Numbered from the stretch's first letter, positions 3,285 to 59,198 are shown. The stretch is DNA of 64,000 bases from Synergistaceae bacterium (GCA_018436595.1 JAHDLC010000012.1:26953-90952), one strand, 5' to 3'. Translations and numbers: made by a program. Notes: generated by a model from the letters alone, not told the origin.

Positions 3285-4778
3285 GTGGAACGATTGTCCG
3301 AAAAGGGTTTTCGCGTGGAAGAAGCGACCGTGCGGCAGATCCATGAGGCCATGAAGCGCGGCGAGACATCCTGCAGGGCCATCACGGAAGAGTATATCCG
3401 CCGCATTGAAGCCTACGACAGGAAAGGGCCTTCCCTCCACGCCGTCATCCTGGTCAACCCAAAGGCGCTGGAGGAAGCGGACGAGCTCGACCGGATCTTC
3501 CGGGAAAAGGGCCCCGTGGGACCCCTTCACGGCATTCCCGTGCTGCTCAAGGATAACGTGGAGACGGCGGACATGGTGACCACCAGCGGTTCCCTCTCGC
3601 TTGAACACTACCTTCCCGACGACGACGCCTTCATCACGAGGAAGTTCCGGGAGGCGGGAGCCCTCATTCTCGCCAAGGCGAACATGCACGAGTTCGCCGT
3701 GTGGGGTGAGAGCGTGAGTTCCATCCTCGGGCAGGTGATCAACCCCTACGACCTCACCCGGACGCCGGGTGGCTCGAGCGGCGGCACCGGCGCCGGCATG
3801 GCGGCCAATTTCGCAGCCGTGGGCATCGGCACCGACACCATCAACTCCATACGGTCCCCGTCCTCGGCCTGCAGCTGCGTGGGCATCCGGCCCACCATCG
3901 GCCTCGTGAGCCGGGACGGCATCTCCCCCTACTCGCTGGACCAGGACACGGCGGGCCCCATCTGCCGCACCGTGGAGGACGCCGTCCGGGTGCTCGACGT
4001 CATCGCCGGGTATGATCCGGCGGACCCGGAGACGGCATGGGCCGTTGGGAACGCCCCCGAAAGCTACATGGACTATCTCTGCCCGGACGGGCTGAAGGGA
4101 AAGCGCATCGGCGTCCTCCGGAGCCTCTTCGGAGACAAGCCGGAGCACGAGGACGTGAACGCCGCCATGAAGCGGAGCCTCGACGCCATGAAGGAGGGCG
4201 GGGCCGAGCTTGTGGAGGTATCCGAGCCCATAGACACCAACTACCTGGCGTCGAAGGTGAGCGTCCATCTTCACACCCTCAAGGACGACCTCGAGGGGTA
4301 CCTGAAGAGTCTCGGCGACAAGTGCGAGTACCACACGGTGGAGGCCCTCATCGACTCCGGCAAGATCCACCCCGGCATCGTGGAGAACATGAAGACCGCT
4401 GCGGGACTGAGCAAGGACAGCGACGAATACCGGTCCCGGACACTGAAGCGCCTCGCCCTGAAGACCCAGGTGATGAAGCTCATGGCGGACCTGAAGCTGG
4501 ATGCCCTCGTCTATCCCCACCAGAAGCGGCTCGCCGTACCCGTGGGCGAATCCCAGGTGGAGCGCAACGGAGTCCTCGGCTCAGCCACGGGCTTTCCGTC
4601 CATCGCCGTGCCGGCGGGATTCTCCAGGCCCACGGAGTCGGCTCCCGAAGGAGTCCCCATCGGGCTGGAAATCCTGGGGCGCCCCTGGAGCGAAGGAATC
4701 CTCATCTCCATGGCCTACGCTTTCGAACAGCGTACCGGTTTCCGGAAACCGCCCTTCAGCACTCCACCGCTTTCCTGA
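3285..4778 (+). CDS. Amidase-signature family amidase
   Basis: LHGIPVLLKDN, GGSSGGTG and GTDTINSIRSPS (Lys-cisSer-Ser triad motifs). Confidence 0.88.
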   Translation: MERLSEKGFRVEEATVRQIHEAMKRGETSCRAITEEYIRRIEAYDRKGPSLHAVILVNPKALEEADELDRIFREKGPVGPLHGIPVLLKDNVETADMVTTSGSLSLEHYLPDDDAFITRKFREAGALILAKANMHEFAVWGESVSSILGQVINPYDLTRTPGGSSGGTGAGMAANFAAVGIGTDTINSIRSPSSACSCVGIRPTIGLVSRDGISPYSLDQDTAGPICRTVEDAVRVLDVIAGYDPADPETAWAVGNAPESYMDYLCPDGLKGKRIGVLRSLFGDKPEHEDVNAAMKRSLDAMKEGGAELVEVSEPIDTNYLASKVSVHLHTLKDDLEGYLKSLGDKCEYHTVEALIDSGKIHPGIVENMKTAAGLSKDSDEYRSRTLKRLALKTQVMKLMADLKLDALVYPHQKRLAVPVGESQVERNGVLGSATGFPSIAVPAGFSRPTESAPEGVPIGLEILGRPWSEGILISMAYAFEQRTGFRKPPFSTPPLS

Positions 4779-48944: not shown

Positions 48945-50102
48945 TTACGGCTTTATCTTCTTGAAGAAGACCGCCTTTTTGCCGGCGATGTCGGACACGA
49001 GCATGATGCCGTCCTTGTCCTTGGGGTTGTGGAACTCGTCCATGGTCAGGGTGGCGTGCATGAGCTTCAGGTCCTTCGTGGCCTCCAGGGCGTCCCGTAC
49101 CTTCACGGGATCGTCGCTGCCGGCCCGCTCCATGGCGTCCTTCACCCAGTAGACGCTGTCATAGGCCATGACGGCGTTCATGAACTCCATGCACTCGGTG
49201 CCGGTCTGCTCCTCGTACTTCTTGAAGAAACCGGCGAGGGCCGGGTCCGCCTTGTCCACGTGGCTCACCCAGTAGGTATCCTTCATGGCGTCGCCGGCGA
49301 TCTCCCACATGAAGTCGCCGTAGCCGTCGCCGCCCACGATCTCAATGTTCAGGTCAAGCTCCCGGGCCTGCTTCACCGCCAGGGGGAGGCACTTGCCCAT
49401 GGTGGGGATGACCAGCACGTCGGGGTTGGCCTGCTTGATCACCGTGAGCTGGGCGCGGAAGTCCACGTCCTCGGCCCTGTGGCCTTCGTCGGCCACGATC
49501 TCTCCGCCGTATTCCTTGAAGGACTTCATGAAGAACTCCCGGAGCCCCTGGGAGTAGTCGCTGGACACGTCATAGAGGACGGCCGCCTTTTTCTTCCCGA
49601 GGTCCTTGGCCGCAAAAGCGGCAATCATCTTGCCCTGATAGGGGTCAAGGAAGCAGATGCGGAAGTTGTAGGGACGGACCTGCCCCTTCTCGTCCACGGT
49701 CACCAGGGGATTCGTGGGGAGGGTTCCGATGTGGGGCACCTTGCCGCGGTTGAACACAGGGGCGGCGGCGATGCAGAGTCCGCTTCCGCTGGGCCCGATG
49801 ACCACGCTGACCTTGTCCTGCTCCACAAGGCGCCGGGCCGCGTTGACCATGTCCTCCTGGCGGGTGCGGCAGTCGTACATGACGACTTCCACGGGCCTGC
49901 CGAGGATTCCGCCTGCGGCGTTGATCTCAGCCACGGCAATCTTCACCGATTCCACTTCCGCCACGCCGTAGGCGGCAAAGTCACCCGTCACCGTCGCGAT
50001 TTCACCGATCCGGATAGGATCCGCCGCACAGGCGGGCACGGCAAAAAGACACACCAGGAACACCAACGCCATCGCTTTCCGAATGCTGCCGAAACTCCTC
50101 AT
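48945..50102 (-). CDS. Branched-chain amino acid ABC substrate-binding protein (LivJ/K-like), orphan
   Basis: Signal peptide, IRIGE, EINAAGGILGRPVE, VIGP.GSG, DYSQG, DF..QL, YDSV. Confidence 0.88.
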   Translation of the reverse strand: MRSFGSIRKAMALVFLVCLFAVPACAADPIRIGEIATVTGDFAAYGVAEVESVKIAVAEINAAGGILGRPVEVVMYDCRTRQEDMVNAARRLVEQDKVSVVIGPSGSGLCIAAAPVFNRGKVPHIGTLPTNPLVTVDEKGQVRPYNFRICFLDPYQGKMIAAFAAKDLGKKKAAVLYDVSSDYSQGLREFFMKSFKEYGGEIVADEGHRAEDVDFRAQLTVIKQANPDVLVIPTMGKCLPLAVKQARELDLNIEIVGGDGYGDFMWEIAGDAMKDTYWVSHVDKADPALAGFFKKYEEQTGTECMEFMNAVMAYDSVYWVKDAMERAGSDDPVKVRDALEATKDLKLMHATLTMDEFHNPKDKDGIMLVSDIAGKKAVFFKKIKP

Positions 50103-50273
50103 TCTTCCAACCTCCTCACATGATATGGTGCCTTTCGGAACAGTATGACTCAATCAAGTTCAGGCGAACGGAATATCCGCCCGCCGGTCCTCCGGGGAAA
50201 AAGACCAACATTGAGAAAAAATTCTCCGCATGGCACAAATAATAATACTACAGCCGAACCTTTTCCGCATCAG

Positions 50274-53319: not shown

Positions 53320-53868
53320 CTACATATCCCGAACAGTCAGAACCAATACAGCCTGCCCCGCCCCGGGCGCAAGGCTGTTGTTGCCCGTCATTTTCACCGT
53401 CCCCCTGCCGCCGGCGCAGAAAATCCCCCGAACCCCCGTAAGGAGGTCGACCTCTCCGGTTCCGAGAGCCTGGGGTCCGGTGGACCGCCCTTCCCTTGGT
53501 GAAGTTATCTCCACCGTCAGCGACAGCCCTGCCGGCAGAGGCGACACAAGACGGCCCGTCAGCTTTCTCGGCGCATCCCCGGTGGAGGAAAGGAGAAAGA
53601 AAAAGGCGCTCTCGCCCGGTTTTCCGCCGATCATGGCGGCCATTGAGACGGAAGTGTTCGTGAGATGGACCCCGCGGAATTCCGGAATGGTCACTTCCAG
53701 GGAAAGCGCGGCCGATTCCGCCGCCTCCGAGGGGAAATCCATGGCCCCCAGCAGCAGCGCTCCCGCGGCGCACGCGAGAAGAATCGAAAGAATCGAAAGA
53801 ATCGGAAGCGATCCGGAACCGGACCGAGAAATCATCATTGTGCCCTTCCCCTTTCCCCGAGGGTTCAT
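53320..53868 (-). CDS. Exported pilin-like subunit (terminal gene), paralog of 58160
   Basis: Signal peptide; K..G..LP.G.S..TGPQ.LGT..VDL shared with 58160; start 53868 (ATGA overlap) or 53838. Confidence 0.65.
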   Translation of the reverse strand: MNPRGKGKGTMMISRSGSGSLPILSILSILLACAAGALLLGAMDFPSEAAESAALSLEVTIPEFRGVHLTNTSVSMAAMIGGKPGESAFFFLLSSTGDAPRKLTGRLVSPLPAGLSLTVEITSPREGRSTGPQALGTGEVDLLTGVRGIFCAGGRGTVKMTGNNSLAPGAGQAVLVLTVRDM

Positions 53869-56693
53869 TTCTTTTTTCCGGAAGAGGACGTCGTCGTAAC
53901 GGTGCCGCTGTCGATAAACTGTATGGTCCGTTTCTTCCGGAAAATGTGATTCACCATCTCCATCACGTCCCCAGGCGCCAGATCAATGGTTTTCGACTCG
54001 GTCTCGAACTGGTAGCCGGCGGGGATGCCCGCTTCGTAAAATGTCAGCTGCCAGTTCCCGGGGCGGATGTTGTCGAACACGAACTCCCCGTTCATGTCGG
54101 TGGAACGTCTGACTGTCTGGTCATCCCTTGTCAGCTCCACCAGTATGTGGGCCAGGCTGACAGGCTTGGCGCCGGATTCCGTCGCCGGCGGTCCCCCGGC
54201 ACCTTCCTTTCCGCCATCTCCCGTTCCTCCCTCCCTGAGAGCGAGCCTTCCCCTGAAAATCGCCCCTTTGGTTATGCCGATATCCATGGAGACAGGTTTG
54301 GGCCCTCCCGCGATCTCGAGGGAGATGGGGTACTTCTGCACCGTGGTGAAACCGTAGCCGATGGACTTGGGGTCGATCATGACGCGGTAAAAACCGGGCT
54401 CCAGGGCGGGGAAGAGGAAAAGACCGTCCTTGTCGGTCACCACGGCTTCAGTCCCTACCCTGACAACAATGTCAGGAAGCCCCGGCTTTTCCGGATTCAT
54501 GGAGTCGAATACCTTGCCCCTGAGAATCCCCACGTTCGTCTTCTTCACCGTCTTGATGCCCACCGGAATCTGGTAGGAAAGGCGGTATTCCGTTTCATAA
54601 TCGTCCCTGGTGACTTCCAGGGTAAGAAGCCGTTCTTCCGTCATCTCGTAGGTTGCGATAAGGTCGAACTGGTTTGACAGCATCTCGGCGTTGTCCCCGA
54701 TGCCGGATCTCGTATAGGCCAGGGAAAGGGTGAGCCGGGGAGAGGCCCTCCAGAAGACAGCCCCTCCGAAACTGCTCGACCCCCTGAGAAGGTAGCTCTC
54801 GCTCAGGACATCGTTGTCGCCGAGGTTCCAGAAAAAGCTCAGGGTGAGGTTGGGCGACGGGAAATAACTCACGAGGAAATTCACGTTCCAGGCCGATTCC
54901 GACACCCCGGTGAGATGATTGTGCTGGTCGCTGAACCGGGGCTCCACGGACCAGTTGATCTGGCCGAAATTCCGGCCGAACCGGATCCAGTACGATGTCT
55001 CCGAATAATCGAAGTTTGCGGGAGCAAGCCGATCGACCCGCCCGAAATCATCAAAGCCGACCATGAGGAACCAGCCGTTCTGCAGAGAGAAATCGAGGGT
55101 CGCCTGCACCAGGTTCTCGGATACGGCCGTATCCGACTCTCCCGGCCTGCGGTCGAGATTGTTCTCGTAGGAGGACGCTCCTATCCCCAGCCGCATTTTT
55201 GGACCTACCGGCAGGCTGACGGAAGCGTTTTCGTAATCGTAGCTGTGGAAATAGCCCCAGTAGTCGGCCCCGGCATGGGTCTTGCCAAGGGAGTAGGACA
55301 TCTTTCCCGCCGTCATCCCCCGCCACAAAAAGCGGTAGGCATCGTCGTCGTTTTTCGCTCCGGGCCGGTCAGTGCTGCTGCGCCCGTACTCAACTTCAAG
55401 CGTGCTGTTCTTTCCCGTCCTGAAGCGCCCTTCCAGGCTCCAGAGCTTGTCCTCCACCTCCGGTTCGCTGCTCGTGGCTTTTGTCTCGGACTGGGCCACG
55501 TTCAGGCGGAGAAAGGAATCATCCCCGAGGGAACGCTGCAGGTAAAATCCCCTGTCGATCCAGTCCTCTTCCCCGGCCCGGTCCCTCACGTAGAACAGGC
55601 CTGCGGACATGTTCCCTCCGGCCATGGACTTGAAATCCACCCCAAACCCCCTTCCGTAGGAGGAATAAACGGTCAGGGGGGAGACGCCGTAGGGCTGGTC
55701 CCCCATCAGGATCCCGAGGGAGCGGCTCGAGTAATTCATCCAGTATTCGTCGGTCCTGCTGAAGAAGGAGGAATCGTCCACATCGGGCCCCCGGAAGGAA
55801 AAGGAAAATTGCTGTTCTCCCTCTTCGTCGAGGGTACCCGCCCCTTTCCATTCGAAGGACGGCTTTGTGTCTCCTCCAGCGGTTCTCGCAGCCGATACGG
55901 CGAACGTGGAAGGGAGGATATGGTAGGGTTCCGGTTTTTTAAAGAGGGCGGGTACGACCTCCAGGAGGACAGCAGTGGAGACGGCCTCCTCTTTTTTTCC
56001 GTCCTTCTCGATTTCCGCCGTTAACTGGATGACGGTGACAGTTCCCCGGAATCCGGGGTCGATCTTTCCCGAGACGGAAATGGCCGCCCCTTCCCCGGGC
56101 TTGAGTGAAACTTCCGATGGAGCCGCCAGAGCTGGTGAGTTCGGATCCGTGTTCTTCGCCCGTATCAGGAAGGTACGGGGGATATTGCCCGAATTGACCA
56201 GCCGGGCGGAAAACTCGTATTCTTCCCCCGCCATGAGCGATGCCGGAGGGTTCTCCACCATCAGGTCAGTCTTCGCCACCGCGAGAACGACCACCTCATA
56301 TTCCATCGAGCCCCGTATGGACGGATCCCGGTCAGACTGCACCGAATATTGGATTTTCGCCCGTCCCTCTGCGGCATTGATGGGTATCTGGAACGACAGG
56401 AGGCGGGCCGTCGAGGCCTGGGGAGGCAGCACGAAGGACGTCATGGGGATCACCATTGACCAGCCTTTCGGCAGGATGACGTCTTCCCGGAACCGTTCCT
56501 GCCTGTTCGTCCGGTTGGTAACCTCGATACTGATGGTGTGCATGCGGCTCGGCTCGGACACGATCTGGACCGGTGAAACAACCCGGACCTCCGCTCCCCT
56601 GCCGTGAAACTGGGCACAGGAAGGCCCTCCTCCCAACAGAAGGAGAAAGACAAGCCCCGCCGACAATCCCCTGCCGACCCGCATGGCGTCCAT
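53865..56693 (-). CDS. Usher-like outer-membrane protein (Ig-like domains, beta-barrel, carboxypeptidase-regulatory-like domains)
   Basis: Signal peptide; two Ig-like N-domains; long run of amphipathic aromatic beta-strands; G.LRGKVFD..TDKDG.F.F..L.PG.Y domain occurring twice. Confidence 0.65.
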   Translation of the reverse strand: MDAMRVGRGLSAGLVFLLLLGGGPSCAQFHGRGAEVRVVSPVQIVSEPSRMHTISIEVTNRTNRQERFREDVILPKGWSMVIPMTSFVLPPQASTARLLSFQIPINAAEGRAKIQYSVQSDRDPSIRGSMEYEVVVLAVAKTDLMVENPPASLMAGEEYEFSARLVNSGNIPRTFLIRAKNTDPNSPALAAPSEVSLKPGEGAAISVSGKIDPGFRGTVTVIQLTAEIEKDGKKEEAVSTAVLLEVVPALFKKPEPYHILPSTFAVSAARTAGGDTKPSFEWKGAGTLDEEGEQQFSFSFRGPDVDDSSFFSRTDEYWMNYSSRSLGILMGDQPYGVSPLTVYSSYGRGFGVDFKSMAGGNMSAGLFYVRDRAGEEDWIDRGFYLQRSLGDDSFLRLNVAQSETKATSSEPEVEDKLWSLEGRFRTGKNSTLEVEYGRSSTDRPGAKNDDDAYRFLWRGMTAGKMSYSLGKTHAGADYWGYFHSYDYENASVSLPVGPKMRLGIGASSYENNLDRRPGESDTAVSENLVQATLDFSLQNGWFLMVGFDDFGRVDRLAPANFDYSETSYWIRFGRNFGQINWSVEPRFSDQHNHLTGVSESAWNVNFLVSYFPSPNLTLSFFWNLGDNDVLSESYLLRGSSSFGGAVFWRASPRLTLSLAYTRSGIGDNAEMLSNQFDLIATYEMTEERLLTLEVTRDDYETEYRLSYQIPVGIKTVKKTNVGILRGKVFDSMNPEKPGLPDIVVRVGTEAVVTDKDGLFLFPALEPGFYRVMIDPKSIGYGFTTVQKYPISLEIAGGPKPVSMDIGITKGAIFRGRLALREGGTGDGGKEGAGGPPATESGAKPVSLAHILVELTRDDQTVRRSTDMNGEFVFDNIRPGNWQLTFYEAGIPAGYQFETESKTIDLAPGDVMEMVNHIFRKKRTIQFIDSGTVTTTSSSGKKK

Positions 56694-56708
56694 GACCGTT
56701 ACCTCCCG

Positions 56709-57533
56709 CTACTTGAGCTCCAGCGTGTAATTCGCCCCAAACACGTTGTCGTCCCCGTTGTCCGCAACGACAACGGCCTTGTACCCTCCCGGCGCAAGCT
56801 TCGACAGGTCGAGCACGAACCGTGCCGAACACCCCGGGTAGATCCGGTGCCTGCTCCCGTCGATCTTCCCGCTCGACTGCCCCTTTTTGTTGAACAGTTC
56901 GGTCCACACATGGGGTGTCAGCAGCCGCTCCCCCGTGTTTTCGAGATCGAGGGTCAGGAAACGGCCGTTCTTTTCCTTCGCCAGGCTCCTGCTCTGGAAG
57001 CTGAGCTTCGCTTCCCCGGAAGAGCCAATGGTGGTGATCATCTGCACGGCAAGGCGGATCACGGTAACGACCTGGATGTCCACGTCGCTTTCCTGCTTTC
57101 CCGGCGTCAGGAGGCTTTTCGGGACAGGTTCGATCATGAGCAGGCTCCAGTAGGTTCCCTTGAGTTTCGGGTCAGGAGGAACGGAAAGGGTGAAATTGAT
57201 CGTCAGGGATCCCTTTGCCGGTATCACCGCCTGGTTGGGAGTCAGGCTTATCCAGGAGGCGTTTGACCGTCCCACGGTCCCGGTTTTCTGGAAGAGAGCC
57301 CGTCCGTCCGCGTAGTGAAGATAGTCCTGGAGAAAAATCTTGAGCTCGCTTTCCTCGTCTCCGGTGTTCTGGACGACGATCTCCCCCCGGGTCTTTCCCC
57401 CCGGATCGAGGGTAAACGACCTGGTCAGCGTTCCGTCCACATTCAGGTTGATGCCGGCCGAAAGGCTGCCGCACATCCCTGCCAGCAACAGGCAGGCCAG
57501 GCACAATCCGTTCACGAGCACCCTGTATTTCAT
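56709..57533 (-). CDS. Periplasmic pilus chaperone-like protein (PapD/DUF916-like)
   Basis: Signal peptide; V.NTG, SWISLTP, V.IPA, GTYWS.LMIEP, L.LENTG, IYPG. Confidence 0.65.
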   Translation of the reverse strand: MKYRVLVNGLCLACLLLAGMCGSLSAGINLNVDGTLTRSFTLDPGGKTRGEIVVQNTGDEESELKIFLQDYLHYADGRALFQKTGTVGRSNASWISLTPNQAVIPAKGSLTINFTLSVPPDPKLKGTYWSLLMIEPVPKSLLTPGKQESDVDIQVVTVIRLAVQMITTIGSSGEAKLSFQSRSLAKEKNGRFLTLDLENTGERLLTPHVWTELFNKKGQSSGKIDGSRHRIYPGCSARFVLDLSKLAPGGYKAVVVADNGDDNVFGANYTLELK

Positions 57534-58030
57534 CGCGTTCTCACCACCGTAAAAATCAGGCTGGTCCGTATCGTTGCCCCGGGCGTCCGGGGGGTGATCC
57601 CCCCAATTTTGAGCTGCAGGGGGACCTGCATCCTGTCACCTGTTCCGGAAAAAAGAAGCACCGGGCTCTCGCCGACGGGTACAAACCCCAGTCCGTTGCG
57701 GATCCAGCCTGCCCCATGCCCGCTGCCGCTCCGGCGCACCCAGAGCTTCACTCCCTCCGGAAGAGGTGAACCCTGTATTTTGACCTCAATTCCCCACTGT
57801 TCACGGGTATTTCCCGCATTGACCACGCTGAGAGCAGCGGATCCCGGCATGCTCTGCATCGAGGGATCGGAAGAGGACCAGAAAGAAGCCCTGAGAGGAA
57901 ATCTCCAGCTTCCCGAAACGATGACGTCAAGACCTTCCGCAGCCAGGGGAGACAAAACCGCCCCGGACAAAAAGAAGCACAGGAAAAGAAAAACTGCGGG
58001 TGCCTTCCAACGTTCCGTTCTCATGAACAT
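57530..58030 (-). CDS. Exported pilin-like minor subunit
   Basis: Signal peptide; LPEGVKLWV motif; terminal beta-strand TSLIFTV. Confidence 0.6.
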   Translation of the reverse strand: MFMRTERWKAPAVFLFLCFFLSGAVLSPLAAEGLDVIVSGSWRFPLRASFWSSSDPSMQSMPGSAALSVVNAGNTREQWGIEVKIQGSPLPEGVKLWVRRSGSGHGAGWIRNGLGFVPVGESPVLLFSGTGDRMQVPLQLKIGGITPRTPGATIRTSLIFTVVRTR

Positions 58031-58159
58031 GTCCCCCCTCGATGGTGCCGTATTCGTATTGCTTGTATAGAAAAGCCGGCGGGGCCTTCCAAGACACTTC
58101 ATTCAGTTCTTCCGGCCGATGAAGCAAACGACGAGTACCTGTCTGTCCGCTTCCCTGCA

Positions 58160-58690
58160 CTAAATCTGGTCGAGAATGGTGAGCTTCAGGACAACCATTC
58201 CGTTGCCGCCTGCGGCGGTGTTGTCGGCGAAGAGGCTGACCTCACCCGTCCCGTTGGCCATGTACAGTTTCTCGAGATCCTTCACGAGATCCACGTCCGC
58301 GGTCCCGAGCACCTGGGGTCCCGTGGTATGTCCGATTCCGTCAGGCCTGTTCAGCAGGCCCCACATGGACACGCCCGTGGGAAGGGCAGGCGAAATGGAC
58401 CCGACGATCTTCCGGAGCCCTACGCCTGTCGCCGCGGCCATGTACTTGAAACCCTTATGGAAGTTGCCTGACCCGGGAGCGCCGATATAGGTGCAGATCT
58501 TCAGTTCGTCGTCAAAAATATAGATCGTTGACATCGGCTGGACTTTCCAGAAGATGTTCAACGAATCGGAATTGGGAAGGGGATCGCAGGACGGAGGACA
58601 AAACAGCAAATCCACTTCCTCCGCCAGGACAGCCCCTGCCACACCTACCACAAACAGCACCGCGAGAAGCACCAGTATCGCTTTCTTCAT
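58160..58690 (-). CDS. Exported pilin-like major subunit candidate
   Basis: Classic signal peptide MKKAILVLL..VLA; N-terminal Cys pair CPPSC; terminal strand VVLKLTILD; GAGGTG RBS. Confidence 0.65.
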   Translation of the reverse strand: MKKAILVLLAVLFVVGVAGAVLAEEVDLLFCPPSCDPLPNSDSLNIFWKVQPMSTIYIFDDELKICTYIGAPGSGNFHKGFKYMAAATGVGLRKIVGSISPALPTGVSMWGLLNRPDGIGHTTGPQVLGTADVDLVKDLEKLYMANGTGEVSLFADNTAAGGNGMVVLKLTILDQI

Positions 58691-58983
58691 TTCACTCACC
58701 TCTTCTTTCTCGGTAAATTGCCCCAAAGAAGGCCCCGCCGGCCTTCGGACACAAAGAACCACCTGTCTGCGGAGACAATTTCCTGTCCGCGCAGCAAACG
58801 CCGAAAATACATTTCAGACCCTGAAATGCAGAACCGCTGCGACCGGGAAAGAATTACGGAAATGAGAGAACGGAAAAACTGAAGGGATTATGGAAGACCG
58901 GGATAAAGCCTGGATAAATGGAACGACCATCAAAAAGAAAAAAATTCCATGCCCCACAATGTGCCTTTACGTCGTACCACGAC

Positions 58984-59110
58984 CTGCCCCACGCATTGCC
59001 ACTGTATTGCCTTTTGTTTTGCCCCTTGTTTTGCACCCTGCATTGCCCCATGCCTTGCAGGTTGCTTTACCCTTTGCCTTGTGCCTTGCATTGCATACTG
59101 CCTTTCTTGT
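58984..59110. repeat. Degenerate 12-bp tandem repeat array (about 10 units, TTGCnnnnTGYn)
   Basis: Units: CTGCCCCACGCA, TTGCCACTGTA, TTGCCTTTTGTT, TTGCCCCTTGTT, TTGCACCCTGCA, TTGCCCCATGCC, TTGCAGGTTGCT, TTACCCTTTGCC, TTGTGCCTTGCA, TTGCATACTGCC. Confidence 0.85.
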
Positions 59111-59170
59111 TTCGCCCCTTTGCACATCAAAAATCTTCTTTTCTTTTGCACTACTATTTATTTCAGCTCA

Positions 59171-59198
59171 ATTATAACCATTGCATCTTCTTTGTCAA
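59171..59198 (-). promoter_or_regulatory. Consensus sigma70 promoter facing the pilus-like operon
   Basis: TTGACA-N16-TATAAT on the minus strand. Confidence 0.75.

What the first reader, a model, noticed from the sequence alone, without database searches (positions are those of the whole stretch)
53320..58690. Five-gene chaperone-usher-like pilus operon with non-classical components
Seen: order subunit, subunit, chaperone-like, 942-aa usher-like, subunit; all are exported, and three of the four junctions overlap or lie within 15 bp. The first and last small proteins share K..G..LP.G.S..TGPQ.LGT..VDL and a terminal alternating beta-strand; the second shares LP.GV.L. Known: the same order defines archaic (Csu/Mcu-type) chaperone-usher systems, mostly described in Proteobacteria. 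Classical ushers do not carry N-terminal NEW3-like Ig domains. Inference: a divergent CU-like fibre assembly pathway in a non-proteobacterial anaerobe, possibly for aggregation or syntrophic attachment.
Basis: partly seen in the sequence, partly recalled or inferred. Interest (0 to 1): 0.72.

Follow-up and report, generated by a model that had tools for sequence, protein, structure and literature searches.

The report
Usher-like pilus operon with WxLIP-type chaperone
A Synergistota bacterium carries a uncharacterised gene cassette, found in at least ten outer-membrane-bearing phyla, that looks built to export and assemble small surface proteins like a chaperone-usher pilus machine, but its "chaperone" is a relative of a Gram-positive cell-surface protein (WxLIP), not of the classical pilus chaperones.

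Summary
The five co-oriented minus-strand genes are real. All five products start with signal-peptide-like sequences. The core order is small protein A, small protein B, a ~270-aa protein C, then a ~940-aa protein U. That order recurs in about 45 genomes from Synergistota, Verrucomicrobiota, Planctomycetota, Zixibacteria, Ignavibacteria, Nitrospirota, Desulfobacterota, Armatimonadota, Bacteroidota and Parachlamydiaceae.

None of the proteins belongs by sequence to the PapD chaperone, usher or fimbrial/SCPU families. The large protein models confidently as two N-terminal Ig domains, a barrel of about 26 strands and two C-terminal beta-sandwiches. Its best solved-structure matches are the FimD and PapC ushers, but it has no inserted plug domain.

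The "chaperone-like" protein is a remote homologue of Gram-positive WxL-interacting protein (DUF916+DUF3324) and lacks that protein's membrane anchor. The small proteins form two paralogous beta-sandwich families. The modelled one resembles donor-strand-complemented pilins only weakly.

In digester and sludge metatranscriptomes the first subunit gene gives a discrete ~640-nt RNA, roughly 20-100 times deeper than the downstream genes in the two digester runs and about 10-fold or less in the two sludge runs.

Best reading: a new, widespread chaperone-usher-like surface-assembly pathway. Polymerisation and strand donation remain inferred.

The parts
58160..58690 (-). P1: family-A small exported beta-sandwich protein, candidate major structural subunit
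   Evidence: ORF. Family A alignment. AF2 model has pLDDT 88.8 and is all-beta. Weak Foldseek matches to donor-strand-complemented pilins. RNA depth is 200-2000 in X30/X32 and about 20-160 in X33/X36, against 2-15 for downstream genes.
58116..58756 (-). Discrete abundant P1 RNA of about 640 nt. It carries a 7-bp stem (58728-58746) near its 5' end, and its 3' end lies in the P1-P2 gap.
   Evidence: In the two digester runs contig depth steps from about 10 to at least 200 at both edges; the two sludge runs cover only part of the stretch at lower depth. Sequence read.
57530..58030 (-). P2: family-B small exported beta-sandwich protein. It is single-copy and lies directly upstream of C in most loci (downstream of U in Mariniphaga, absent from the Parachlamydiaceae locus). 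Candidate minor, adaptor or anchor subunit.
   Evidence: Related to family A (hhalign 95%). C-terminal motif P-x-T-Y-x-T-T-v-v-F-T-V-V-D.
56709..57533 (-). P3: soluble periplasmic two-domain protein. Remote homologue of WxL-interacting protein (DUF916+DUF3324) without the C-terminal TM helix. Candidate chaperone.
   Evidence: Profile against PDB EfmWxLIP1: E = 5e-5 over both domains. hhalign against 8 plasmid WxLIPs: probability 95.3%, E = 2e-8, 218 columns. WxLIP_PGBD hits in 22 of 70 members and no PapD hits. 768 clusters at E <= 1e-30.
53865..56693 (-). P4: usher-like outer-membrane protein (whole gene)
   Evidence: AF2 model pLDDT 83. Top Foldseek PDB hits are FimD and PapC. 45 genomic relatives.
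55953..56594 (-). P4 residues 34-247: two N-terminal Ig-like (NEW3/FixG_C-like) domains, presumably periplasmic docking domains
54543..55925 (-). P4 residues 257-717: beta-barrel of about 26 strands. No inserted plug; the longest inter-strand stretch is 15 residues or fewer.
   Evidence: DSSP of the model. Faint porin Pfam hits BBP2 and Porin_4.
53937..54530 (-). P4 residues 722-919: two C-terminal prealbumin/CarboxypepD_reg-like beta-sandwich domains
   Evidence: Pfam CarboxypepD_reg E = 7e-10, present in 29 of 29 members. Model.
53320..53868 (-). P5: second family-A paralogue. A trailing copy directly after U occurs in all Synergistota loci and also in Mariniphaga and Parachlamydiaceae.

Best explanation
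This is a four-component core, plus one extra subunit here, of a previously undescribed chaperone-usher-like pathway that exports small beta-sandwich proteins and assembles them on the surface of diderm bacteria.

Proposed mechanism:
1. The small proteins (family A: P1 and P5; family B: P2) are exported by Sec into the periplasm.
2. The soluble two-domain protein P3 captures them there. P3 is a homologue of Gram-positive WxL-interacting protein that has lost the membrane anchor.
3. P3 probably stabilises them by lending the long hairpin strand at the end of its first domain (GTYWS..MVEP - loop - V.RYAIQMVT.I). AlphaFold predicts such strand donation for WxLIP:WxL, and PapD-type chaperones do the same.
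4. P3:subunit complexes dock on the periplasmic Ig and prealbumin-like domains of P4.
5. The subunits pass through P4's barrel of about 26 strands to the cell surface.
6. P1, by far the most abundant transcript, is the major structural subunit. It most likely forms a fibre or dense surface array. P2 and P5 are minor subunits (adaptor, tip or anchor).

Shown here: the gene cassette and its conservation; signal peptides (by inspection); P3-WxLIP homology; the P4 architecture and its usher-like best matches; paralogy of families A and B; high P1 RNA.

Inferred: strand donation, passage through P4, surface location, and polymerisation.
For: - The order A-B-C-U is conserved in about 45 loci from at least 10 diderm phyla, in otherwise unrelated genomic contexts. 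No other family is conserved around it.
- P4 model: pLDDT 83, with 2 Ig domains, a barrel of about 26 strands and 2 C-terminal beta-sandwiches. The seven best PDB matches are FimD ushers (E = 5e-14 to 2e-12, about 770-815 aligned columns), followed by PapC. LptD, TonB-dependent receptors and MtrB rank lower.
- P3 is homologous to WxLIP: PDB EfmWxLIP1 E = 5e-5 and hhalign probability 95.3%. [quoted passage not shown]
- P3 ends right after its second domain, whereas the WxLIPs carry a TM helix.
- P1 model: pLDDT 88.8. Its weak structural matches are enriched for donor-strand-complemented fibre subunits: archaeal cannula 9h8b (TM 0.50), CfaB, FimA, the PapG pilin domain, PapA and FimG.
- Conservation follows the gradient typical of pilus systems. 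Identity to the window protein across phyla is 39-48% for C, 26-34% for U, and 11-31% for A and B.
- Family-A genes are multiplied in some loci.
- P1 RNA depth is 200-2000 in runs X30 and X32 and about 20-160 in X33 and X36. Downstream genes are at 2-15. This is the pattern seen for major pilin genes.
Against: - There is no detectable sequence homology to PapD-family chaperones, ushers, or fimbrial/SCPU subunits.
- Foldseek TM-scores of P4 to ushers are low (0.25-0.38), and large barrels match each other promiscuously.
- No plug domain is inserted in the barrel.
- P1 has no structural match at E <= 1e-3. The monomer model cannot show whether the fold is incomplete.
- Coordinates and PAE were not available, so neither domain packing nor a strand-accepting groove could be inspected.
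- Homology of families A and B to WxL domains is inconclusive. There are no Pfam WxL hits, and the hhalign scores are no better than those of unrelated forward pairs, except for a 16-column C-terminal match.
- No experimental evidence for a fibre exists.
- RNA depth comes from assembler contig depth, which is a rough measure.
Confidence: 0.55

Rival explanations
1. It is a non-fibrous surface or envelope complex, a diderm counterpart of the Gram-positive WxL/Csc cell-surface complex. A and B are WxL-like peptidoglycan- or envelope-binding proteins held by P3. They link the outer-membrane protein P4 to the cell wall, or decorate the surface as a heteromeric complex or coat. There is no donor-strand-exchange polymerisation.
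For: - P3 is homologous to WxLIP.
- There are two distinct small-protein families per cluster, as WxL clusters have two WxL proteins (PMC9772566).
- The C-terminal motifs of B (Y-S-T-T-V-V-F-T-V-V-D-I-P) and A (T-V-T-L-T-L-T-D-G-P) resemble the second WxL motif (Y-x-T-T-L-x-W-x-L-x-D-x-P).
- Very high P1 RNA also fits an abundant envelope or coat protein.
Against: - WxL homology of A and B is not statistically established.
- A barrel of about 26 strands with usher-like flanking domains is more than an anchor needs.
- P3 has lost the membrane anchor, so it looks like a shuttle rather than a scaffold.
- Multiplication of family-A genes and the weak pilin-like structural matches favour a polymer.
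Confidence: 0.25
2. It is a nutrient-capture or uptake system. P4 is a large outer-membrane channel. A, B and C are substrate-binding accessory proteins, analogous to Sus-like systems or to the carbohydrate-utilisation role once proposed for Lactobacillus Csc clusters.
For: - CarboxypepD_reg domains also occur on SusC-type transporters.
- TonB-dependent receptors and porins are among the P4 structural matches.
- ABC-transporter and binding-protein genes flank the locus in the window and in L001.
Against: - There is no plug or TonB-box domain, and no TonB-dependent receptor Pfam hit.
- A and B have no lipoprotein signal.
- Flanking genes are not conserved across loci, and no enzymes or regulators of a substrate pathway co-occur.
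- The CarboxypepD_reg domains are C-terminal rather than N-terminal.
- The roughly 10-100-fold excess of one small subunit's RNA is atypical for an uptake system.
Confidence: 0.08
3. The five genes are functionally unrelated neighbours, and the resemblance to a pilus operon is coincidental.
For: None of the proteins has a curated family assignment.
Against: The same four families occur in the same order in about 45 loci across phyla, with overlapping or near-adjacent stop and start codons.
Confidence: 0.02

Closest known systems
Chaperone-usher pili, especially the archaic/sigma class (Csu of Acinetobacter, CupE, Mcu of Myxococcus) and type 1/P pili (FimC/FimD, PapD/PapC)
   Same: - The gene order is subunits, periplasmic two-beta-sandwich protein, large outer-membrane barrel protein, then a further subunit.
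- All products are Sec-exported.
- The outer-membrane protein has N-terminal beta-sandwich domain(s), a large barrel and two C-terminal beta-sandwich domains. FimD and PapC are its best solved-structure matches.
- The subunits are beta-sandwiches of about 140-150 aa (mature) with an alternating C-terminal strand. The modelled one, P1, weakly matches pilins.
- The first subunit gene is by far the most highly expressed.
   Different: - No sequence homology to PapD, usher, Fimbrial or SCPU families.
- The barrel has about 26 strands rather than 24, and no inserted plug domain.
- There are two N-terminal Ig domains of NEW3 type, and the C-terminal domains are prealbumin/CarboxypepD_reg-like.
- The chaperone candidate belongs to the WxLIP lineage.
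- The system is found mainly outside Proteobacteria.
WxL / Csc cell-surface clusters of Firmicutes (small WxL + large WxL + WxLIP = DUF916-DUF3324; E. faecium Swp/Lwp/Duf loci; PDB 9i25 and 9i1y EfmWxLIP1)
   Same: - P3 is a full-length remote homologue of WxLIP, covering both Ig-like domains.
- One WxLIP-type gene sits next to two different small exported beta-rich proteins.
- The C-terminal motifs of A and B resemble the second WxL motif.
- WxLIP is predicted to donate a strand that completes the partner's beta-sandwich (PMC10599100).
   Different: - P3 lacks the C-terminal transmembrane helix.
- A and B lack the dual Trp-x-Leu signature and give no Pfam WxL hit.
- There is no LPXTG partner.
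- The hosts are diderm, and a 940-aa outer-membrane barrel is an obligatory fourth component.
Chaperone-free donor-strand fibres (archaeal cannulae CanA, archaeal threads/bundling pili, TasA)
   Same: The best single structural match of the P1 model is the Pyrodictium cannula subunit (9h8b, TM 0.50, E = 6e-3). That subunit polymerises by donor-strand complementation.
   Different: The match is weak. Those systems have no dedicated periplasmic chaperone or outer-membrane barrel, and no sequence similarity was detected.
LptD and other large outer-membrane barrels (MtrB, TonB-dependent receptors)
   Same: The barrel has a comparable strand number of about 26, and these proteins appear among the structural matches (E = 1e-9 to 1e-6).
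   Different: - They rank below the ushers.
- There is no LptE-like partner, no TonB plug and no cytochrome partners.
- The gene context is entirely different.

Membership tests
Chaperone-usher pathway (classical, alternative or archaic) | Periplasmic chaperone of the PapD superfamily (PapD_N PF00345 / PapD_C PF02753) | tested here: not met
   No PapD_N or PapD_C hit at E <= 1 in any of 70 P3-family members. hhalign of the P3 family against FimC gives probability 0.4%. P3 is instead homologous to WxLIP.
Chaperone-usher pathway (classical, alternative or archaic) | Outer-membrane usher of family PF00577: 24-strand barrel with an inserted plug, an N-terminal domain and two C-terminal domains | tested here: not met
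   Usher/PapC Pfam families are not among the families shown for 29 members. hhalign against FimD gives probability 0.6%. The model has about 26 strands and no inserted plug. Only the overall architecture resembles an usher, and FimD/PapC are the top Foldseek hits with TM 0.25-0.38.
Chaperone-usher pathway (classical, alternative or archaic) | Subunits of the Fimbrial (PF00419) or SCPU (PF05229) families | tested here: not met
   No such Pfam hit at E <= 1 in 42 family-A and 40 family-B members. Profile searches against PDB sequences found nothing.
Chaperone-usher pathway (classical, alternative or archaic) | Subunits with an incomplete Ig fold, completed by the chaperone's strand and then by the next subunit's N-terminal strand | tested here: inconclusive
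   The P1 monomer model is confident (pLDDT 88.8). Only secondary structure and pLDDT were available. The first 30 mature residues have no regular structure. Weak Foldseek hits are enriched in donor-strand pilins. No complex model was possible.
Chaperone-usher pathway (classical, alternative or archaic) | Operon order: major subunit(s), chaperone, usher, further subunit or adhesin | tested here: met
WxL / WxLIP (Csc) cell-surface cluster | WxLIP protein with DUF916 (PGBD) followed by DUF3324 (HBD) | tested here: met
   This is remote homology only. The P3 profile matches EfmWxLIP1 at E = 5e-5 over both domains. hhalign gives probability 95.3%, E = 2e-8. PF06030 hits occur in 22 of 70 members, all below the Pfam gathering score.
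WxL / WxLIP (Csc) cell-surface cluster | C-terminal transmembrane helix on WxLIP | tested here: not met
   The P3 family ends a few residues after the second domain. Seven of the eight plasmid WxLIP tails read show a hydrophobic C-terminal helix.
WxL / WxLIP (Csc) cell-surface cluster | Two proteins carrying a WxL domain with two Trp-x-Leu motifs | tested here: inconclusive
   No Pfam WxL hit. hhalign of B against WxL gives P = 0.006 over 101 columns. A against WxL gives P = 2e-5, but over only 16 C-terminal columns. Unrelated control pairs reach similar scores. The motif-level resemblance is limited to the C-terminal strand.
WxL / WxLIP (Csc) cell-surface cluster | Monoderm (Firmicutes) host, often with an LPXTG partner gene | tested here: not met
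   All carrier taxa named in the record titles belong to diderm phyla. No LPXTG protein is present in the cassette.
TonB-dependent / SusC-like transporters | N-terminal plug domain with a TonB box inside a 22-strand barrel | tested here: not met
   No Plug or TonB_dep_Rec Pfam hits. About 26 strands and no plug.

The most novel reading that the evidence does not exclude
This is a new class of donor-strand-based pilus or surface-fibre machinery in diderm bacteria that arose independently of the PapD/usher lineage. Its chaperone shares ancestry with Gram-positive WxLIP. If so, the enigmatic WxL clusters of Firmicutes and this outer-membrane 'WxLIP-usher' system would be monoderm and diderm versions of one ancient surface-assembly principle. 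WxLIP itself would then be an assembly chaperone rather than a host-binding adhesin.
Probability: 0.35. Interest if true: 0.85.

Novelty: new variant of a known kind. Interest (0 to 1): 0.74.

Why it matters
- The cassette is widespread. The C family alone has 768 clusters at 50% identity with E <= 1e-30. Carriers span at least ten diderm phyla, several of which (Verrucomicrobiota, Planctomycetota, Zixibacteria, Synergistota) are, to my knowledge, not known for chaperone-usher pili. Every component is annotated only as 'hypothetical'.
- If it builds surface fibres or coats, it would add a new assembly pathway to the short list of known bacterial pilus systems.
- It would give a first functional handle on abundant surface proteins of anaerobic-digester Synergistota, where the major subunit is very highly transcribed.
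- It would also recast the Gram-positive WxLIP/WxL complexes, which are implicated in enterococcal virulence and lactobacillus adhesion, as chaperone-assisted assemblies.
- Cultured carriers make it directly testable: Desulfotalea psychrophila DP1963 locus, Mariniphaga anaerophila DSM 26910, Chryseobacterium sp. MOF25P, Niabella aquatica and Arcticibacterium luteifluviistationis.

Tried and rejected
- **Family scans of the five proteins.** Pfam and NCBIfam gave only generic C-terminal prealbumin domains in P4.
- **PDB sequence searches.** Single-sequence searches with P4 and P3 found nothing useful. Profile searches with families A and B found nothing.
- **First genome scan.** The scan with the 29-sequence alignment failed for lack of a conserved stretch. 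It was repeated with a closer 15-sequence set.
- **Classical chaperone-usher homology.** hhalign against FimC and FimD was negative, so membership in the PapD/usher lineage was rejected.
- **Homology of A and B to WxL domains.** I collected eight small WxL proteins from Enterococcus, Bacillus, Lactiplantibacillus, Lactococcus and Melissococcus plasmids and ran hhalign with reversed and unrelated controls. The result is inconclusive and is not claimed.
- **RNA features.** An Rfam scan of the whole window gave no match. Folding the P1-P2 gap gave no structure beyond shuffled controls (z = -0.05).
- **Literature.** Searches for a described diderm WxLIP/usher system, for the Desulfotalea locus tags, and for the paper behind PDB 9i25 found nothing relevant.
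- **Neighbourhood.** Two-component regulator genes lie near the cassette in 15 loci. These families are generic, so I did not count them as part of the system.
- **Chaperone-subunit complex model.** I considered modelling a fused chaperone-subunit chain and dropped it.

Full report
**1. The observation**

Window 53320-58690 holds five co-oriented minus-strand ORFs:
- P1, 58160-58690, 176 aa.
- P2, 57530-58102 as the longest ORF. The start with a ribosome-binding site is ATG 58030.
- P3, 56709-57533, 274 aa.
- P4, 53865-56693, 942 aa.
- P5, 53320-53868, 182 aa.

P2/P3 and P4/P5 overlap by ATGA. P3 and P4 are 15 nt apart. The P1-P2 gap is 57-129 nt. All five N-termini have a basic start, a hydrophobic core and a small-residue cleavage site. 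I judged this by reading the sequence; no predictor was run.

P1 and P5 are paralogues (phmmer E = 1e-16). P2 belongs to a second family that profile comparison links to the first (hhalign probability 95%, E = 3e-8).

**2. Conservation**

The 942-aa protein has only about 30 relatives in the word-indexed protein search, all unnamed. A scan of one genome per species found 45 loci.

The closest are Synergistales, Synergistaceae and Aminivibrio MAGs (80-96% identity). The window is therefore from a Synergistota bacterium of wastewater or anaerobic digesters, consistent with the runs that hold it.

More distant relatives (20-34%) occur in Armatimonadota, Zixibacteria, Ignavibacteria, Nitrospirota/Thermodesulfovibrionia, Desulfobacterota, Verrucomicrobiota, Planctomycetota, Bacteroidota (including cultured Mariniphaga anaerophila) and Parachlamydiaceae.

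I translated all ORFs of these loci and searched them with the five window proteins. The order is family A, family B, P3-like, P4-like in almost every locus with enough flanking sequence.
- Trailing family-A copies after U occur in all Synergistota loci, in Mariniphaga and, three in tandem, in the Parachlamydiaceae locus.
- Extra A copies upstream of B occur in Planctomycetota, Desulfobacterales, Armatimonadetes, Zixibacteria and Mariniphaga loci.
- In Mariniphaga the B gene lies downstream of U.

All-against-all clustering shows that A, B, C and U are the only families conserved around the locus. The remaining clusters are antisense artefacts or generic two-component regulators. Flanking genes differ completely between phyla. 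This is a mobile or ancient four-gene module, not a chance neighbourhood.

**3. The large protein (U, P4)**

Pfam sees only two C-terminal CarboxypepD_reg/prealbumin-like domains, plus faint Ig (NEW3, FixG_C) and porin signals. The Usher, PapC_N and PapC_C families are not among the hits in any of 29 members.

An AlphaFold2 model from a 29-sequence alignment is confident (mean pLDDT 83, pTM 0.56). It shows:
- two N-terminal Ig-like domains (residues 34-136 and 142-247);
- an uninterrupted run of about 26 antiparallel strands (257-717), with no stretch between strands longer than about 15 residues;
- two C-terminal beta-sandwiches (722-819 and 851-919).

Foldseek against the PDB puts seven FimD usher structures first (E = 5e-14 to 2e-12, 770-815 aligned columns). 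PapC follows, and LptD, TonB-dependent receptors and MtrB rank lower.

TM-scores are low (0.25-0.38), and large barrels cross-match easily. What is shown is an usher-like architecture: beta-sandwich, big barrel, two beta-sandwiches. Homology is not shown; hhalign against FimD gives 0.6% probability. The refutation criterion 'no TM barrel' is not met, because a barrel is there. The classical plug is absent. Which flanking domain, if any, gates the pore could not be checked without coordinates.

**4. The 'chaperone-like' protein (C, P3)**

This is the best-conserved component: 39-48% identity across phyla, with more than 258 relatives in the indexed search. An exhaustive profile search found 768 clusters at E <= 1e-30, 1998 at E <= 1e-10 and 5909 at E <= 1e-3. 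All named relatives are called 'hypothetical', apart from an evidently wrong JGI 'archaellum FlaG' label.

No member hits PapD_N or PapD_C, and hhalign against FimC gives 0.4%. Instead:
- 22 of 70 members weakly hit PF06030 (WxLIP_PGBD, formerly DUF916), and 2 hit PF11797 (WxLIP_HBD, formerly DUF3324).
- The family profile finds the solved Enterococcus faecium WxLIP1 (PDB 9i25_C, 9i1y_A) at E = 5e-5, over both domains.
- hhalign against eight WxLIPs that I collected from Firmicutes plasmids gives 95.3% probability, E = 2e-8, over 218 columns.

The plasmid WxLIP tails that were read end in a transmembrane helix in seven of eight cases. P3 and its family stop right after the second domain, so P3 is a soluble periplasmic version.

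Hassan et al. (PMC10599100) report confident AlphaFold predictions for WxLIP:WxL complexes. In them, a long hairpin of the first WxLIP domain becomes ordered and pairs in parallel with a strand of the WxL domain, filling a gap in its beta-sandwich. That is the operating principle of PapD-type chaperones.

In P3 the aligned segment is the most conserved part of the family: GTYWS..MVEP, a variable loop, then V.RYAIQMVT.I, with invariant R160 and near-invariant Q164 and T167. It sits at the end of domain 1, where the donor G1 strand of PapD-like chaperones sits. Mapping the published WxLIP hairpin onto this segment is my inference; the paper does not give residue numbers. Strand donation by P3 is likewise inferred, not shown.

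**5. The small proteins (families A and B)**

Neither family has any Pfam, NCBIfam or PDB sequence match.

Family A (P1, P5) typically starts, right after the signal peptide, with an alternating strand (T-Q-T-V-T-Y-E-V-S-A-I-N-E-I-S-V-S-G). It ends with T-V-T-L-T-L-T-D-G-P. Family B (P2) starts A-I-D-I-T-A-T-G-G-W, has a conserved W-R-V-D-V-R-R segment, and ends P-x-T-Y-S-T-T-V-V-F-T-V-V-D-I-P.

The mature P1 model, built from a 75-sequence alignment, is confident (pLDDT 88.8, pTM 0.78) and all-beta. Its first 30 residues have no regular secondary structure.

Foldseek finds nothing at E <= 1e-3. The weak list is nonetheless headed by, and enriched in, donor-strand-complemented fibre subunits: the Pyrodictium cannula subunit (TM 0.50), CfaB of CFA/I pili, FimA in rods, the PapG pilin domain bound to PapD, PapA and FimG. 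That is suggestive, not proof.

The C-terminal motifs resemble the second WxL motif of the Gram-positive partner proteins (Y-x-T-T-L-x-W-x-L-x-D-x-P). Profile comparisons are no better than unrelated control pairs, except for a 16-column C-terminal match. I therefore leave homology of A and B to WxL open.

**6. Expression**

Four metatranscriptome runs from two studies (anaerobic digester, bioreactor sludge) carry contigs of this organism. The stretch 58116-58756 covers P1 plus about 65 nt upstream and about 45 nt downstream.
- In the two digester runs (X30, X32) this stretch has contig depth 200-2000.
- In the two sludge runs (X33, X36) it has depth about 20-160.
- P2-P5 and most neighbouring genes have depth 2-15. 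The periplasmic binding-protein gene at 48945-50153 reaches 13-64.
- In the digester runs the edges are sharp steps.
- In run X36 the P1 bin (15.3) is no higher than the best neighbouring bins.

Contig depth is a rough measure and has no strand. Two other 'RNA' runs are flat and look DNA-derived. Even so, a consistent excess, roughly 20-100-fold in the digester runs, is what one expects of a major structural subunit whose mRNA is separately terminated, processed or stabilised, as is known for papA.

A 7-bp stem sits about 10 nt from the RNA's 5' end. No convincing terminator was found in the P1-P2 gap.

**7. How it most likely works**

The parts fit a chaperone-usher-like logic:
1. Sec export of the A and B subunits.
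2. Capture and fold completion by soluble WxLIP-like C.
3. Delivery to the periplasmic domains of U.
4. Translocation through the barrel.
5. Surface assembly, with P1 as the bulk component and P2/P5 as minor components.

The conservation gradient (C > U >> A, B), the multiplication of A genes, and strain variants of P1 within single metatranscriptomes are typical of exposed, diversifying structural subunits.

I put 0.55 on this pathway as a whole. Within it, a true strand-exchanged fibre is somewhat more likely than a non-polymeric surface complex.

The main rival (0.25) is a non-fibrous envelope or surface complex analogous to the WxL complex, possibly bound to peptidoglycan. A nutrient-uptake role is unlikely: no plug, no lipoproteins, no conserved metabolic neighbours.

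**8. Comparison and novelty**

The system works like a chaperone-usher system but fails the membership tests for that family on chaperone, usher and subunit sequence, and on the plug. It shares one homologous component with Firmicutes WxL clusters. It differs from them by lacking the anchor helix, WxL signatures and an LPXTG partner, and by requiring an outer-membrane barrel.

I found no description of this cassette, or of WxLIP homologues in diderm bacteria, in the searchable literature. That library is incomplete, and the paper behind PDB 9i25 was not found.

I rate it a new variant of a known kind: chaperone/usher-type surface assembly. It is widespread and entirely unannotated, and it has an evolutionary link to a Gram-positive system that has not, to my knowledge, been described.

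**9. Limits**

- Only two structure jobs were available, and they returned no coordinates. Groove, plug and interfaces could not be examined, and P2, P3 and P5 were not modelled.
- Signal peptides were judged by eye.
- Expression rests on assembler depths.
- No experiment links any of these proteins to a surface structure.

Noticed in passing
window 59171-59198 (-), and L007 about 3440-3470: A perfect sigma-70 consensus promoter (TTGACA, 16 nt, TATAAT; 12 of 12) lies about 480 nt upstream of P1. It is conserved in the 92%-related Synergistaceae locus L007. RNA depth downstream of it is low (about 1-35), so it is not the obvious source of the abundant P1 RNA, unless that RNA is a processed and stabilised product.
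   Followed up: partly
window 58985-59094 (-), L007 3538-3615: Tandem 12-nt repeats lie just downstream of that promoter. L007 has 6.4 copies of CAAGGCAAAAAG at 90% match; the window has degenerate copies. They overlap a 73-aa basic Gln/Lys/Arg-rich ORF (58930-59151, minus strand). This could be a small basic repeat peptide, a protein-binding array or a regulatory leader. There is no Rfam match.
   Followed up: partly
window 58810-58828 and 58728-58746 (-): An 8-bp inverted repeat, CATTTCAG-GGT-CTGAAATG, lies about 55-70 nt upstream of the 5' end of the abundant P1 RNA. It is almost fully conserved in L007 and is a candidate regulator site. A 7-bp GC-rich stem, GAAGGCC/GGCCTTC, lies about 10 nt inside the RNA's 5' end and is a candidate mRNA stabiliser or attenuator.
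   Followed up: no
window 58116-58640, runs X30, X33 and X36: Several contig variants of P1, differing by about 10% in sequence, coexist at high depth within single metatranscriptomes. This suggests co-occurring strains with divergent major-subunit alleles.
   Followed up: no
L047 8737-10232; L045 and L046: The Parachlamydiaceae locus has no upstream A/B pair but three tandem family-A genes downstream of U. The Mariniphaga loci carry two or three A-type genes upstream, and an A plus the B gene downstream of U. The order of the subunit genes is therefore more plastic than the C-U pair.
   Followed up: partly
loci L010, L017, L020, L023, L027, L028, L032, L033, L038 and others: Response-regulator and histidine-kinase genes lie within a few kb of the cassette in 15 loci, mainly Verrucomicrobiota. 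These are generic families, but they may be local regulators. None is adjacent in the window.
   Followed up: partly
P0036, P0040, P0137 (P3 homologues): JGI annotates some P3-family proteins as 'archaellum component FlaG (FlaF/FlaG flagellin family)'. NCBI names one P4 homologue (Niabella aquatica) 'COG1470 family protein'. Both labels look like carry-over from generic beta-sandwich similarity.
   Followed up: no
L001 13554-16001: In the related Synergistaceae MAG, CsgG-family and TPR protein genes (curli-secretion-like lipoproteins) lie about 3 kb downstream of the cassette on the opposite strand. I did not check whether the window has the same genes.
   Followed up: no
window 48945-50153 (-): The periplasmic branched-chain-amino-acid-type binding-protein gene is the second most highly covered gene of the 20-kb stretch in the metatranscriptomes (depth 13-64).
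   Followed up: no
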